Source: an uncultured Candidatus Rokubacteria bacterium (lineage in GTDB: Bacteria > Methylomirabilota > Methylomirabilia > Rokubacteriales > CSP1-6). Taken from it: a stretch of 64,000 nucleotides of DNA. The stretch is taken from NCBI GenBank assembly GCA_963771355.1, contig CAVYTA010000006.1:1792001-1856000 (forward strand), read 5' to 3'. The notes below the pieces were generated by a model that was not told where the DNA came from, made no database searches, and saw only the letters and a list, made by a program, of their open reading frames with translations. Within the stretch, counting starts at the first letter, position 1, and each line of letters opens with the position of its first letter. The translations under genes and the position numbers were made by a program. This document shows, piece by piece, positions 41,078 to 46,172 of the stretch.

Positions 41078-42751
41078 CTAGAACAGGCCGGTGATGCGGC
41101 CGTCGGGCGTGACGTCCACTCCTTCCGCGTTGGGCTTCCGCGGAAAGCCGGGCATGGTCGTGATGTCGCCCGTGATCGCCACGAGGAAGCCCGCCCCCGC
41201 CGAGACGTAGAAGTCGTTCACCGTGATCTTGAATCCGCGCGGCCGGCCGAGCAGGGTCGGGTCGTCGGAGAGCGACCGCTGGGTCTTGGCCACGCAGACG
41301 GGAAGGCCGCCATAGCCCAGCGCCTCCAGCTCCGCGATCTGCCGCTCCACCCGGCCGGGATAGACCACGCCGTCGGCGCCGTAGATGCGCCGCGCGATGG
41401 TGTCGAGCTTGGCCTTCACCGGCTGATCCAGGGAGTACAGCGGCGTGAAGTCGGAGGGCTCGCGGGCGAGGAGCTCGCGGAGCCCCTTGGCCAGATCCCC
41501 GCCGCCGTCCCCACCCCGCGCGAAGATGTCGGCCACATGCACGCGGACGCCCAGCTTGGCGCAGTGCTCGGCCACCAGCTGGTACTCGCGCTCGGTGTCG
41601 CTCGGATAGCGGTTCAGCCCGACGATGGCGGGCACCTTGAACTGCCGGATGATCTCCACGTGGGCATCGAGGTTGGCGAGCCCGCGCCGGAGCGCGTCCA
41701 GGTTCTCCGGCTCCAGGTCTTTCACCGCCACCCCGCCGTGATACTTCAGCGCCCGGCAGGTGGCGACGATCATGGCCGCGTCCGGGCGCAGCCCCGCCAG
41801 CCGGCACTTGATGTCGAAGAACTTCTCCGCGCCGAGGTCGGTGGCGAAGCCCGCCTCGGTGAGACAGATATCCCCGAGCTTCAGCGCCAGCCGGGTCGCC
41901 ACCACCGAGTTGCAGCCATGCGCGATATTGGCGAAGGGGCCGCCGTGGACCAGCGCGGGCGTGCCCTCCATGGTCTGCACGAGATTGGGGTGGATGGCGT
42001 CACGCAGCAGCGCGGCCATCGCGCCGGTGACGTGGAGGGCGTCCGCGGGCACCGCCTTGCCGTCCCGGGTCAGCGCCACCACCATGCGGCCCAGCCGCTG
42101 CTTGAGATCCGCCAGGCTCTCGGAGAGGCAGAGCACGGCCATGATCTCGGAGGCGGCGGTGATGAGGAAGCCGCCCTCCCGGGGCACCCCGTCCATGCGC
42201 CCGCCCAGCCCCACCACCACCTTCCGCAGCGCGCGGTCGTTGACGTCCAGCGCCCGCTTCCAGAGCACCTGGCGCACGTCGATGCCGAGCGCATTGCCGT
42301 GATGGAGGTGATTGTCCAGCGCGGCGGCCAGGAGATTGTTGGCGGCGGTGATCGCGTGAAAGTCTCCGGTGAAGTGGAGGTTGATCTCGTCCATGGGCAC
42401 GATCTGTGAGCGCCCGCCGCCGGTGCCGCCGCCCTTGAGGCCGAGCGTGGGCCCGATGGACGGCTCGCGCAGCGCGATGACCGGCCGCGCGCCCGCGCTC
42501 CAGAGCGCCTGGCCCAGCCCGATGGTCATGGTGGTCTTGCCGTCTCCCGCCGGGGTGGGCGTGATGGAGGAGACGACCACGAGCTTGCCGTCGGGCCGGG
42601 ACCGGCGCGCCTCCAGCGCGCTCAGGTGGACCTTGGCCTTGGTGTGGCCGTAGGGCAGCCACTCCGACTCGGCGAGACCGAGGTCGGCGGCCACCGCCCG
42701 GATCGGGCGCGGGGGGCTAGGCTCGAACGGCGGGGGGGTCGAGGTCGCCAT
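41078..42751 (-). CDS. fhs: Formate--tetrahydrofolate ligase
   Basis: TPAGDGKTT, KGGGTGGG, LHFTGD, HGGPFANIAHG and MPG..GLF motifs. Confidence 0.96.
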   Translation of the reverse strand: MATSTPPPFEPSPPRPIRAVAADLGLAESEWLPYGHTKAKVHLSALEARRSRPDGKLVVVSSITPTPAGDGKTTMTIGLGQALWSAGARPVIALREPSIGPTLGLKGGGTGGGRSQIVPMDEINLHFTGDFHAITAANNLLAAALDNHLHHGNALGIDVRQVLWKRALDVNDRALRKVVVGLGGRMDGVPREGGFLITAASEIMAVLCLSESLADLKQRLGRMVVALTRDGKAVPADALHVTGAMAALLRDAIHPNLVQTMEGTPALVHGGPFANIAHGCNSVVATRLALKLGDICLTEAGFATDLGAEKFFDIKCRLAGLRPDAAMIVATCRALKYHGGVAVKDLEPENLDALRRGLANLDAHVEIIRQFKVPAIVGLNRYPSDTEREYQLVAEHCAKLGVRVHVADIFARGGDGGGDLAKGLRELLAREPSDFTPLYSLDQPVKAKLDTIARRIYGADGVVYPGRVERQIAELEALGYGGLPVCVAKTQRSLSDDPTLLGRPRGFKITVNDFYVSAGAGFLVAITGDITTMPGFPRKPNAEGVDVTPDGRITGLF

Positions 42752-43139
42752 CGGGCATGATCTCCTTGAGCCAGTCGGGCAGCGCGATCATCTTCTGGGA
42801 CCGGGGGTCCCAGCACGCGTGGCGCGTGTGGCCGTGCGCGACCAGCTCGCGCTTCTCATTGTGGATCTCGTACTTGAAGGTGAAGCTGGCGCGCCGCCGC
42901 TCGCTCACGCGAGAGGTGACGTCGAGGAGATCGTCGAGGAGGGCGGGCCGGGCGTAGTGCACGCAGGCCTCCACCACCGGCATGTGGATGCGCCGATCCA
43001 CCTCGGACATGGGCAGGCCCCGCTCGCGGAGATACTCCACGCGCGCGACCTCGAAGAAAGTGAGGTAGTTGCCGTAGTAGACCACCGACATGGTGTCGGT
43101 GTCCTTGTAGCGCACGCGGATGCTGGTGTGGGACGGCAT
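42717..43139 (-). CDS. YbgC/FadM family acyl-CoA thioesterase
   Basis: RVRYxDTDxxxVVYYGNYLxFFE motif. Confidence 0.88.
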   Translation of the reverse strand: MPSHTSIRVRYKDTDTMSVVYYGNYLTFFEVARVEYLRERGLPMSEVDRRIHMPVVEACVHYARPALLDDLLDVTSRVSERRRASFTFKYEIHNEKRELVAHGHTRHACWDPRSQKMIALPDWLKEIMPDGDLDPPAVRA

Positions 43140-43159: not shown

Positions 43160-44143
43160 TCAGAGGTACTGGCCGTAGCGGGTCTTCTCCACGACCTCCC
43201 GGATTCGCCGATAGCCGTCCAGCTGCTGGAGGAGATCCTGCGTGGTGACCAGTCCGGCGTCCCGCCCCTCGCCCGCCGCCTGCACCTTCTGCTCCAGCGC
43301 GCGCCGGAACACCTCCGAGATCTCCGCGCCGCTCATCCCCCCCATCGGGGGCAGCAGCGAGCGGTAGTCGATCTCGTCGAAGAGAGGACGCCCGGCCTTG
43401 GCCTCCGCGCGCTCGCGCACGAGCTGGAGGATCTCCTGCTGGGCGGCGCCGTCGGGCAGGGCCACCTCGACCAGGCGGTCCAGGCGGCCGGGCTCCACGA
43501 GGGAGCGATCCACCGAGTCGGTGCGGTTGGTGGAGGCCACCACCAGCATGCGCGCGGACTCGTCGAGCCCGTCGAGCTTCTCGCAGAGCGCGGCCACCAG
43601 GCGCGCGCTGGACTCGCGGGCCTGGGCGGGCGGCAGCAGGTGCTCGAGCGAGAGCGCGTTGGCCTCGTCGAGATAGACCACCGCCTTGCCCTCGGTCTTG
43701 GCGATGTTGATGATCTCCTGGAGCAGCTCACCGGTGTTCGGACCGAACTTCGAGGTGAGGTTCATCATCTTCAGGTGGTAGAAGATGGCGCCCGCGCTGG
43801 TGGCGAGCGCCCGCGCGAGCATGGTCTTGCCGGTCCCCCGCGGGCCGTAGAGCAGGATGCCCCGGGGCGGGCTGATCCCCCACTTCCGATAGAGATCGGG
43901 CTCGGTGAGCGCGGTGGTGAAGCCCCGGATGGCGGCCTTGGCCTGCGGAATCCCGCCGATGTGCTCGAACGGCGTGTCCGGCTTGATCGTCACCACCACC
44001 CGGCCGCTGAGATCGCCGAACTTCTCCCCCAGCTTGGTGAAGACGTCCTCGATGCGGCGCTGGATGGCCCACTGCTGGCCCTCCGGCTCGGGCGTGGAGG
44101 CTCGTCCCGAGGGGCCGGCGTCGCGCGGGAGCTCGTCGGCCAT
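43160..44143 (-). CDS. Single-module classic-clade AAA+ ATPase with C-terminal GQYL
   Basis: IGG, PPRGILLYGPRGTGKT (Walker A), VYLDE (Walker B), TNR...PGRLDR (SRH) and SGAEI; ends RYGQYL*. Confidence 0.88.
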   Translation of the reverse strand: MADELPRDAGPSGRASTPEPEGQQWAIQRRIEDVFTKLGEKFGDLSGRVVVTIKPDTPFEHIGGIPQAKAAIRGFTTALTEPDLYRKWGISPPRGILLYGPRGTGKTMLARALATSAGAIFYHLKMMNLTSKFGPNTGELLQEIINIAKTEGKAVVYLDEANALSLEHLLPPAQARESSARLVAALCEKLDGLDESARMLVVASTNRTDSVDRSLVEPGRLDRLVEVALPDGAAQQEILQLVRERAEAKAGRPLFDEIDYRSLLPPMGGMSGAEISEVFRRALEQKVQAAGEGRDAGLVTTQDLLQQLDGYRRIREVVEKTRYGQYL

Positions 44144-44145
44144 GG

Positions 44146-44682
44146 TCAGATCCTGGGCCCGCTGGGTGGAGGGGACGACGGCGGGCGCTCCGACTTCTCG
44201 AACACCTTGTCCTCGACCAGCACCGGCGCGCCCGCGCGAATGGCCAGGGCGATGGCGTCGGAGGGGCGCGTGTCCAGCGCGAAGCTCTCGCCGCGCGCGG
44301 TGAGGTGGAGCACCGCGTAGTAGATGTCGTCGCGTAGGTCGGTGATCACCACGCGGGTGACGGTCACGTCGAGCCGCCCGAAGAGGGTGAGAAACAGGTC
44401 GTGGGTGAGCGGGCGCGGGGGGGTCCGCTTCGCCAGCGGAAACGCGATCCCGGTGGCCTCGGCGGGCCCGATGGACATTGCGAGGGTGCGTCCGTCGCGA
44501 CGGCCCTCGAGGACCACGGTGGGCACGCCGGTCTGCGGGCTCAACACCACCCCGAGCACCGTGACCTCCTGAGCGCCGGCGGCGCGCGGAGCCGGCGTGT
44601 CACCGTGGCCGCTCACGGCCACGAGCAGCACGCCACCGCCGAGCAGCAAGGCCAGGAACGGCATCCGTCTCGGGTTGGGCAT
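44146..44682 (-). CDS. DUF151 / bifunctional nuclease family protein with signal-like N-terminus
   Basis: IGPAEA, RPLTHDL and RPSDAIALA motifs. Confidence 0.82.
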   Translation of the reverse strand: MPNPRRMPFLALLLGGGVLLVAVSGHGDTPAPRAAGAQEVTVLGVVLSPQTGVPTVVLEGRRDGRTLAMSIGPAEATGIAFPLAKRTPPRPLTHDLFLTLFGRLDVTVTRVVITDLRDDIYYAVLHLTARGESFALDTRPSDAIALAIRAGAPVLVEDKVFEKSERPPSSPPPSGPRI

Positions 44683-44752
44683 GTGCGTCCTCCGCGCCCG
44701 CCGTCCGCGCGAGCGCTCACGCAGTATCGGCCGCGGCCCGGGGCAAGTCAAC

Positions 44753-46017
44753 TCAGCGGTCGGCGGAGAGCTTCGCGGCGGCGGCGCTCTGGGCGGCGCG
44801 CGTGGGGGGCAAGATCTCGGGCACGCGGACCACGCCCGGACCCGGCGCGAGCCGATAGCTCGCGACGATCCCGCCGGACATCACCACCGCGAGCGCGATC
44901 CACATGAAGGAGTAGCCGGCGCCATGCGCGAAGATAGCCGAAGACGACGGCGCCGACCGCATTGCCGAGCAGGCACACCGCACTGAAGATGCCCACCGCG
45001 GTGGCGCGCCGCGCCTCGGGTGTCACGTCCACGAGCAGCGCGGACAGCGCGGGATAGAGAAATCCATGTGCCGCGCCCCCCAGGAGACCGGCGAGGAAGA
45101 TGAACGGCAGCACGGGGACCCGCACCCCGGGCCCCACCGCCCCCGCGAGGAGCGCGAAGATGCACACCGCGGCGGCGAAGATGATCATGCACGGCACGAT
45201 CACGGCGCGGCGGCCCCGCGTGTCGATGAGGTCACCGCCGAAGACGCGCACTGCCACCGCGGAGACGGAGTACGCGGTGTAGAAGAGGCCGAGGCCCGTC
45301 ACGCCGAGCTGCTCGGCAAACGTGGGCACGAAGGTGAACAGCGTCCCGGTGCCCAGGCCGAAGAAGAAGCCGAGCACCATGTGCACGCGGTAGAGCTCCT
45401 CGCAATCCCTCGCGGAGCTCTTCGAGGCCCGGGCCGCCGCCCGGCTCGGGCGGGCGGATCCCCCGCGTGCGCAGGATGATGGTGAACGCCCCGGCGGCCA
45501 GGAGCGCCGCCAGGACGAAGCACCAGCGAAAGCCCGCTTGCCGGATCACGGCCTCGCCGAGGAGCGGGGCCAGCGCGGTGGAGGTGAGACCGGAGAGGCC
45601 GAAGATGCCCAGCGCCCAGCCCCGGCGGTCGATCGGCACCAGATCCACGATGTGGATGTAGCTGGCCACGAAGAAGGCGGAGAAGGCGAGCCCCTGCAGG
45701 GCGCGCAGCACGGCGTGGAGCGGGATGGAATGGCTCAGCAGGAAGCCCACCGCCGAGAGCGCGAGCAGCAGCGCACCCAGGCGCATGAAGAAGCCGCGGC
45801 CGAGGCGATTCACCCACAATCCCACCAAGGGCTGGAACAGGATCCCGGCCAGGCTGTACGCGCCCTGGACGAGGCCCACGTGCGCCTCGTCGCCGCCCAT
45901 TTGCTGGACGTGGATGGGCAAGAGGAGGAAGAGGTTCATGCTCATGAAGAAGAGAAAGTTCATGAGCATGGCCTCGAGGAACGGCCGGCTCACGAGCAGC
46001 GGAACGGCCGAGGTCAC
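44753..46017 (-). CDS. MFS transporter (two frameshifts, near 45402 and near 44931)
   Basis: G...NRLGR, RALQG and RRGWALG in the N-half; D..GRR and GFLYPALSA in the C-half; split over three frames. Confidence 0.78.
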
Positions 46018-46172
46018 GCGCGTTGCGGCGAGGCGGGGCGGGACAGTAGAATGACGGCCGCCATGAGACACGCGAAGTGTAGCACGCGGGCGCGCGCCTG
46101 ATCACCATCGCCGCCGCGCTCGCCGCCGCCGCCACGCTCGGCCCCGACGGGCGCGGGCGTTTCGACGCGCCT

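What the first reader, a model, noticed from the sequence alone, without database searches (positions are those of the whole stretch)
43160..44143. Minimal AAA+ ATPase ending in GQYL: candidate new 20S proteasome partner
Seen in sequence: a 327-aa protein with one classic-clade AAA module, only about 55 residues before it, and the exact C-terminus ...RYGQYL*. Established: GQYL is the C-terminal docking and gate-opening motif shared by the actinobacterial proteasome activators ARC/Mpa and Bpa/PafE. Mpa is much longer, with a Pup-binding coiled coil and OB domains. This protein has no room for those domains. Pore loop 1 reads SKFGPNT instead of K(Y/F)VGE, and the first SRH arginine is replaced (VEPGR versus LRPGR). 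No prcA/prcB/pup/pafA/dop genes are in the window. Inference: a Pup-independent, possibly non-translocating proteasome cap, gate opener or hetero-ring partner that is distinct from Mpa, Bpa and Cpa.
Basis: partly seen in the sequence, partly recalled or inferred. Interest (0 to 1): 0.82.

Follow-up and report, generated by a model that had tools for sequence, protein, structure and literature searches.

The report
Third GQYL-tailed bacterial proteasome cap candidate
A small ATPase-type protein carried by most genomes of one uncultured bacterial phylum ends in the same four residues that known bacterial activators use to plug into the proteasome, so it likely docks there as an undescribed extra cap, one whose ATP-burning parts look partly worn away in this lineage.

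Summary
Observation confirmed: an intact 327-aa single-AAA protein ending RYGQYL*. The genome has arc-dop-prcB-prcA-pafA about 150 kb away and pup elsewhere. Only this protein and ARC end in GQYL among 28,365 ORFs. The family lies in 159 of 201 Methylomirabilota genomes, and 295 of 296 distinct members end GQYL at a fixed spacing. It is not an arc remnant. It nests among longer, GQYL-less ATPases of Patescibacteria and other bacteria, and 0 of 8 such genomes tested had proteasome subunits. In the window's order the Walker A lysine is kept (70 of 70 loci), the first arginine finger is lost (0 of 70), and Walker B and sensor 1 drift. Best reading: a Pup-independent, weakly or non-hydrolysing cap that likely docks on PrcA (docking about 0.8, mode about 0.5). 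Against it: no linkage to proteasome genes here, no gene-presence association within the phylum, and loss in proteasome-bearing relatives. Binding has never been measured. My literature searches found no description. This scan has noted the same family on at least six other genomes.

The parts
43160..44143 (-). Gene for the 327-aa single-AAA protein with a GQYL tail (P0002)
   Evidence: single copy in the genome; AlphaFold2 model mean pLDDT 91.9
43160..43174 (-). GQYL codons and stop: the presumed 20S docking tail
   Evidence: 295 of 296 distinct family sequences end GQYL
43178..43243 (-). Last helix (residues 301-322), running to one residue before GQYL; no beta-grasp insert
   Evidence: predicted secondary structure; 29 residues from V299 to the end in 295 of 296 sequences
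43475..43534 (-). Sensor 1 and second region of homology (residues 204-223): N206 kept here, first arginine replaced by E217, second arginine R220 kept
43664..43681 (-). Walker B (VVYLDE, residues 155-160), intact in this copy
43733..43753 (-). Pore loop 1 (SKFGPNT, residues 131-137), non-canonical
43823..43846 (-). Walker A (GPRGTGKT, residues 100-107)
44018..44083 (-). Family-specific N-terminal helix (residues 21-42) with near-invariant R29, D33, L38; followed by G43 and G47
44146..44751 (-). Upstream neighbour, bifunctional nuclease domain (PF02577); ORF as listed, true start probably later. Conserved neighbour in the window's order only
   Evidence: beside the gene in 68 of 76 own-order loci and 0 of 17 other-order loci
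42717..43139 (-). Downstream neighbour, YbgC/FadM-type acyl-CoA thioesterase. Conserved neighbour in the window's order only
   Evidence: 68 of 76 and 0 of 17 loci

Best explanation
This intact single-AAA protein ends in GQYL and sits in a genome with a complete Pup-proteasome system, and it likely forms an ATP-binding ring that would plug its tails into the PrcA pockets of the 20S core, likely opening the gate for untagged or already unfolded proteins and competing with ARC while doing little unfolding itself. Shown: the gene, the tail, its conservation and fixed spacing, the proteasome genes and pocket residues, the separate ancestry from ARC, and the pattern of motif decay. Inferred: ring formation (from the fold), docking (from Mpa and Bpa precedent, about 0.8), gate opening and competition with ARC (Bpa precedent), and weak hydrolysis (from motif loss). 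The family likely arose when a GQYL-less single-AAA protein lost its ~240-aa N-domain and gained GQYL behind its old tail. It likely began as an active ATPase, as still seen in other orders of the class.
For: Tail: 120 of 121, 86 of 86 loci down to 44% identity, 120 of 120; 295 of 296 distinct sequences with 29 residues from V299 to the end. The tail is steadier than ARC's own, which is GHYL in 9 of 21 loci. Only ARC and this protein end in GQYL in the genome (0.125 expected). All six Pup-proteasome genes pass NCBIfam cut-offs. PrcA keeps the pocket residues named in PMC9599533 (passages): K52, E119 and D143 in 20 of 20, R26 in 13 of 20 with K in 7. The nearest relatives lack GQYL, and 0 of 3 Patescibacteria and 0 of 5 Chloroflexota-side carriers had proteasome subunit hits. 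Precedent: Bpa was found by a genome search for this tail and competes with Mpa in a tail-dependent way (PMC4254994 passages). Decay in the window's order, 70 loci: K106 70, R220 70, first arginine 0, Walker B E 47 (Q 8, D 15), sensor N 17, all five cis residues 16. PMC10914628 (passages) gives the roles of the matching p97 residues E305, N348 and R359. The model has no beta-grasp insert and its best structural matches are PAN AAA domains.
Against: The gene is not linked to proteasome genes in this genome or its order (no proteasome gene in any own-order locus). Gene presence within the phylum shows no association: both 126, family only 33, prcA only 31, neither 11 of 201, where 124 would be expected by chance. 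Well-assembled relatives have prcA without it (G067, one contig, 100% complete; tail pattern in 2 of 20 genomes of family f7). Two genomes of genus g29 (93% and 100% complete) carry it with no hit for prcA, arc or dop/pafA, though both have pup and Bpa. The tail was gained once, so its match to proteasome presence is a single evolutionary event. This copy keeps Walker A, Walker B, sensor N and a pore-loop F, so it may still hydrolyse ATP. The glutamine is invariant here although it is dispensable for docking in mycobacteria (PMC12288473), so another constraint may act on the tail.
Confidence: 0.5

Rival explanations
1. It is a fully active, Pup-independent unfoldase cap: a PAN-like motor without an N-domain that burns ATP and threads untagged proteins into the 20S core.
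For: This copy keeps K106, T107, D159, E160, N206, R220 and F133. In other orders 7 of 16 loci keep all seven catalytic residues, 14 of 16 keep the five cis residues and 15 of 16 keep a pore tryptophan. The best fold matches are PAN AAA domains.
Against: In the window's order the first arginine finger is absent from 70 of 70 loci, only 16 of 70 keep the five cis residues, 8 carry a natural Walker B E-to-Q (all one genus, so one event), and 17 of 18 loci in families f2-f5 have no pore aromatic.
Confidence: 0.15
2. It is a partner subunit or regulator of ARC: it would enter or stack on the ARC ring, lending exposed GQYL tails or tuning ARC's ATPase cycle, instead of forming its own cap.
For: The nucleotide-binding lysine and second arginine are kept while the rest decays, as expected of a regulatory subunit (inference). 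Mpa's own tail is hidden by a beta-grasp domain and the review PMC12288473 (part 1 of 4 read) concludes that Mpa needs additional factors to expose it. In genus g64, 5 of 16 family loci have an arc copy tail-to-tail beside the gene.
Against: Only 30% identity to ARC over 203 residues and a separate clade. It lacks the OB region that promotes Mpa hexamer assembly (PMC8142254 passage). The arc adjacency is convergent, confined to one sub-lineage and probably one event. No member was found in 251 Actinomycetota genomes, where the docking puzzle was described.
Confidence: 0.15
3. The protein has a role unrelated to the proteasome and the conserved tail serves another partner or a structural purpose.
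For: No linkage and no presence association in the phylum; 33 of 159 carriers have no prcA hit; neighbours are a nuclease-domain gene, a thioesterase and formate-tetrahydrofolate ligase; the whole EKIRYGQYL stretch is conserved, not only the last two residues.
Against: An exact match to the docking tail at the extreme C-terminus, shared in this genome only with ARC. Relatives in genomes without proteasome hits lack it. Of the carriers without prcA that I tested, 4 of 4 have pup and 2 of 5 have arc or a Pup-ligase piece at contig ends, which points to assembly gaps in at least some. The neighbours are absent from 17 of 17 other-order loci.
Confidence: 0.12
4. It docks on the 20S core but acts only as a plug or storage cap that blocks ARC and Bpa without letting substrates through.
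For: Decayed motor motifs with an invariant tail; non-canonical pore loops; it coexists with Bpa in 22 of 23 Bpa-positive genomes, so a second ATP-independent activator may be redundant.
Against: GQYL insertion opens the gate for both Mpa and Bpa by the same helix movement (PMC9599533 passages). Members in other orders keep a motor-like active site.
Confidence: 0.07
5. It is a truncated or frameshifted remnant of an arc gene.
For: Shared GQYL, and a loose likeness of the residues before it in this genome (VEKIINTGQYL in ARC).
Against: A full arc exists elsewhere. Upstream is an intact unrelated gene. The family is conserved at 305-335 aa across a class. Forcing it into one clade with ARC costs 53.8 log-likelihood units, AU p = 0.037.
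Confidence: 0.01

Closest known systems
ARC/Mpa, the Pup-proteasome ATPase (NCBIfam TIGR03689)
   Same: Single classic-clade AAA domain; C-terminal GQYL; same genomes.
   Different: Scores 94.8 bits against a cut-off of 504.75; 30% identity to the genome's own ARC; no Pup-binding coiled coil of ARC length, no OB domains, no beta-grasp insert; separate clade; outside the proteasome operon.
Bpa/PafE, the ATP-independent activator (Pfam PF10759)
   Same: GQYL tail; gene away from the proteasome operon; likely Pup-independent and likely competing with ARC.
   Different: Different fold (AAA instead of a helical dodecamer); no PF10759 match; fixed short spacing before the tail; coexists with Bpa in 22 of 23 Bpa-positive genomes of the phylum.
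PAN, archaeal proteasome-activating nucleotidase (TIGR01242, NF003069)
   Same: Best family score and best structural matches; single AAA with a penultimate tyrosine.
   Different: 154-168 bits against cut-offs of 500; no coiled coil/OB N-domain; not in the PAN clade; catalytic motifs decayed in this order.
Cpa, Cdc48-like protein of actinobacteria (PMC6017811)
   Same: An AAA protein other than ARC proposed to cap the bacterial 20S core.
   Different: Cpa is Cdc48-like and binds without a HbYX tail (passages); this protein has one AAA domain and a GQYL tail.
Unnamed ~480-560-aa single-AAA proteins of Patescibacteria, Chloroflexota and unassigned metagenomes (e.g. P0206, P0398)
   Same: Nearest relatives: one clade with SH-aLRT 99-100; shared lid insertion and last helix.
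   Different: They carry a ~240-aa N-region with no Pfam match, canonical motifs and no GQYL; 16 of 17 in one alignment end in an [ILM]GF motif.

Membership tests
ARC/Mpa (TIGR03689) | Score above the family cut-off | tested here: not met
   94.8 against 504.75 bits; the genome's real ARC scores 743.9
ARC/Mpa (TIGR03689) | N-terminal coiled coil plus two OB domains, and a beta-grasp domain before the tail | tested here: not met
   about 55 residues before the AAA module with one helix; last helix runs to residue 322
ARC/Mpa (TIGR03689) | C-terminal GQYL | tested here: met
ARC/Mpa (TIGR03689) | Groups with ARC in an AAA tree | tested here: not met
   separate clades; joint clade rejected at AU p = 0.037
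Bpa/PafE (PF10759) | BPA domain | tested here: not met
   no match in the protein or in the genome
PAN (TIGR01242, NF003069) | Score above cut-off and coiled-coil/OB N-domain | tested here: not met
   154 and 167.7 against 500 bits
Cdc48/Cpa (TIGR01243) | Two tandem AAA domains and an N-domain | tested here: not met
   one AAA domain; 141.6 against 802.65 bits
Classic-clade AAA ATPases | AAA fold with Walker A, Walker B and sensor 1 | tested here: met
   PF00004 over cut-off; model matches PAN, p97 and FtsH; K106, T107, D159, E160, N206 present
Classic-clade AAA ATPases | Two arginines in the second region of homology and an aromatic-hydrophobic-glycine pore loop | tested here: not met
   E217 for the first arginine; loop reads KFGP
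Bacterial 20S activators (functional class) | Cognate 20S core with intact docking pocket in the genome | tested here: met
   prcA and prcB over cut-off; R26, K52, E119, D143 present
Bacterial 20S activators (functional class) | Ring assembly, tail-dependent binding and gate opening | not testable with these tools
   needs purified proteins

The most novel reading that the evidence does not exclude
A proteasome cap built independently of ARC, PAN and Bpa: an ordinary bacterial ATPase was retargeted to the proteasome by gaining a four-residue tail, then shed its motor step by step, leaving a nucleotide-binding pseudo-ATPase that supplies exposed GQYL tails to ARC or controls which cap sits on the core. 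It would be the kind of docking factor that the Mpa field has been looking for.
Probability: 0.2. Interest if true: 0.88.

Novelty: new variant of a known kind. Interest (0 to 1): 0.72.

Why it matters
Two GQYL-tailed activators are described for bacterial proteasomes, both from actinobacteria (PMC12288473). The family offers a natural series from motor-intact to motor-decayed members with an unchanged tail, which makes it directly testable whether gate opening needs ATP hydrolysis. The same review states that nothing is known about how activator association with the core is regulated; a nucleotide-binding, weakly hydrolysing cap is a concrete candidate for such control. All parts can be expressed in E. 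coli.

Full report
Observation. It passes no NCBIfam cut-off: PAN 167.7 of 500, Cdc48 141.6 of 802.65, ARC 94.8 of 504.75. It is single-copy. The gene upstream is an intact PF02577 ORF whose stop lies 2 nt before the ATG. Named close homologues are Rokubacteria/Methylomirabilota, so I infer that the window belongs to that group.

The proteasome is there. Contig C6 carries arc-dop-prcB-prcA-pafA at 1,678,911-1,685,435, about 150 kb from the gene, and pup (ending GGE) at about 1,379,750. All six pass their NCBIfam cut-offs. There is no Bpa and no UBact over cut-off. Of 28,365 six-frame ORFs of 60 aa or more, two end in GQYL: ARC and this protein; 0.125 would be expected. PrcA keeps R26, K52, E119 and D143, the pocket residues named in PMC9599533 (passages; alignment to an actinobacterial PrcA). 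Across 20 PrcA sequences K52, E119 and D143 are invariant and R26 is K in 7.

The tail is a family trait. 58 of 61 relatives carry the gene. In the phylum sample, 172 of 201 genomes matched at E <= 1e-35; I dropped 13 genomes of genus g60 whose best hits were near 1e-37, taking them for other AAA proteins without fetching them, which leaves 159. GQYL ends 120 of 121 proteins (the other lacks the last residue), 86 of 86 genome loci down to 44% identity and 120 of 120 proteins. After removing duplicates, 295 of 296 end GQYL and have exactly 29 residues from V299 to the end. ARC's own tail is less steady: GHYL in 9 of 21 loci, all outside the window's order. The AlphaFold2 model (pLDDT 91.9) shows an N-terminal helix at 21-42, a normal AAA module and a last helix to residue 322, so the tail is not tucked behind a beta-grasp domain as in Mpa (Mpa from PMC8142254 passages). 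Its best structural matches are PAN AAA domains.

The motor decays in this order. In 70 own-order loci (the window's included) the Walker A lysine and second SRH arginine are kept in 70, the first arginine in 0, Walker A T/S in 59, Walker B glutamate in 47 (Q in 8, all one genus; D in 15), sensor 1 asparagine in 17, and all five cis residues in 16. In 16 other-order loci all seven residues are kept in 7, the five cis residues in 14 and a pore tryptophan in 15. The window's copy keeps the five cis residues and lacks only the first arginine and a normal pore loop. I map E217 to p97 R359 from the alignment to VAT and recalled p97 numbering; PMC10914628 (passages) reports that mutations at E305, N348 and R359 lower p97 activity. 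So nucleotide binding is likely kept and hydrolysis is likely optional in this order.

Ancestry. A profile search of 1.84 billion cluster representatives returned, after the family, single-AAA proteins of 376-561 aa with canonical motifs, an N-region without a Pfam match and no GQYL. In a tree of 70 chosen AAA domains the family is one clade (SH-aLRT 99) inside a clade with these proteins (99), apart from ARC, PAN, FtsH and Cdc48 D1/D2 (77 rows; quick method, no bootstrap). Holding family and ARC together costs 53.8 log-likelihood units, AU p = 0.037, a modest rejection. Sister-type genes were found in 3 of 301 Patescibacteria genomes (one database member is so named) and 7 of 201 genomes of the phylum of a Chloroflexales record. 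None of the 8 loci read ends in GQYL, and 0 of 3 and 0 of 5 of those genomes had proteasome subunit hits. In the alignment the sister tail K/R-[ILM]-G-F falls on the family's K-I-R-Y, with GQYL added behind it. This is one gain, so it is suggestive and not statistical.

Evidence against. No proteasome gene lies in any own-order locus, and the conserved neighbours are confined to this order. Presence of the gene and of prcA is not associated within the phylum: 126 both, 33 family only, 31 prcA only, 11 neither, with 124 expected. Both genes are common and most assemblies are fragmented, so the test is weak. Of family-only genomes, 4 of 4 tested have pup, and of 5 tested G071 and G140 have arc or a Pup-ligase piece at contig ends while G035, G073 and G094 have neither. 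The gene is dispensable: the tail pattern is in 2 of 20 genomes of family f7, where 16 of 18 have prcA. In family f8, 4 of 15 genomes have the full gene, 5 have only its two ends and 6 have nothing. G092 and G087 share an in-frame deletion of the whole AAA core with two metagenome contigs (one identical to G092); G079 and G151 have other, out-of-frame deletions; G076 has the ends on two contig edges. G092, G087 and G079 have no prcA hit, G076 and G151 do. Codon counts for the in-frame short form (7/7, 6/6, 0/4 synonymous/non-synonymous against 8/6 for a full-length pair) cannot tell a mini-protein from a pseudogene.

A partial link. In genus g64, 5 of 16 family loci have the end of an arc gene directly downstream, tail to tail. 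In G154 this is a second, full arc about 94% identical to its operon copy. It is probably one event and the genes are not co-oriented.

Mechanism. The best-supported reading is a Pup-independent cap that docks through GQYL and opens the gate with little motor activity, competing with ARC as Bpa does (PMC4254994 passages). I put docking at about 0.8 and this mode at about 0.5 overall. An active unfoldase, an ARC partner, a plug and a non-proteasome role are the rivals; ring formation, binding and activity were not measured.

Literature. Searches for GQYL with proteasome, Rokubacteria, Methylomirabilis, Methylomirabilota or NC10 with proteasome terms and activator terms listed no paper whose title or abstract start describes such a protein; I saw only the listings for most. 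I read part 1 of 4 and passages of PMC12288473 and passages of PMC9599533, PMC6017811, PMC8142254, PMC10914628 and PMC4254994. The library lacks most subscription papers, and I opened no supplements; gene lists in the supplements of bacterial proteasome surveys could mention the family. Databases label members generically, for example '26S protease regulatory subunit'. The scan's own notes report the same family on at least six other genomes; I had stated my reading before seeing them and do not count them as support.

Unpublished genomes G016, G030, G094, G136 and G175 are inside the tallies, four of the 86 loci, alignment A2, the trees and the codon comparison.

Verdict. A real, strongly conserved, apparently undescribed family, most likely a third GQYL-tailed partner of the bacterial 20S core. 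New variant of a known kind; interest 0.72.

Noticed in passing
L210-L214 (G020, G035, G073, G039, G016) and 18 further genomes: Bpa/PafE homologues over the PF10759 cut-off in 23 of 121 Methylomirabilota genomes; the five read end in GQYL (4) or GHYL (1). PMC4254994 (abstract passage) describes Bpa orthologues as found only in actinobacteria.
   Followed up: partly
L379:1501-1725, L380, L240:5803-6027, L307; remnants in L386 and L387: In family f8 the gene has lost its whole AAA core at least three times while keeping the N-terminal helix and the last helix. One deletion is in frame and leaves a 75-codon frame ending GQYL in three diverged sequences. Mini-protein or pseudogene is undecided.
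   Followed up: partly
L092:2175-3875 (G154); also L093, L096, L289, L362, L363: A second arc copy ending GHYL lies tail to tail with the short AAA gene in part of genus g64.
   Followed up: partly
G000:C6:1379748-1379936 (L039): pup lies about 300 kb from the arc-dop-prcBA-pafA operon in this genome. In other orders it sits before arc or between dop and prcB.
   Followed up: partly
P0206, P0398, L215-L217, L374-L378: An unnamed clade of ~480-560-aa single-AAA proteins with a shared N-region lacking any Pfam match, scattered in Patescibacteria and Chloroflexota-side genomes. Many end in an [ILM]GF motif, which recalls the ClpP-docking IGF loop (recalled, not tested).
   Followed up: partly
L196-L202, L207, L208, L100: Outside the window's order ARC mostly ends in GHYL (9 of 10 loci) and PrcA position 26 is often K instead of R (7 of 9), while the short AAA protein keeps GQYL.
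   Followed up: no
window 44748-46071 (-): An MFS transporter gene appears as two overlapping ORFs in different frames, both with MFS_1 hits; probably a frameshift or sequencing error.
   Followed up: no
P0146 and P0223: Two divergent GQYL-ending members (308 and 309 aa, 41% identical to each other) of unknown taxon; single database labels of Binatia (P0104) and Acidobacteriota (P0374) on typical members may be binning errors.
   Followed up: partly
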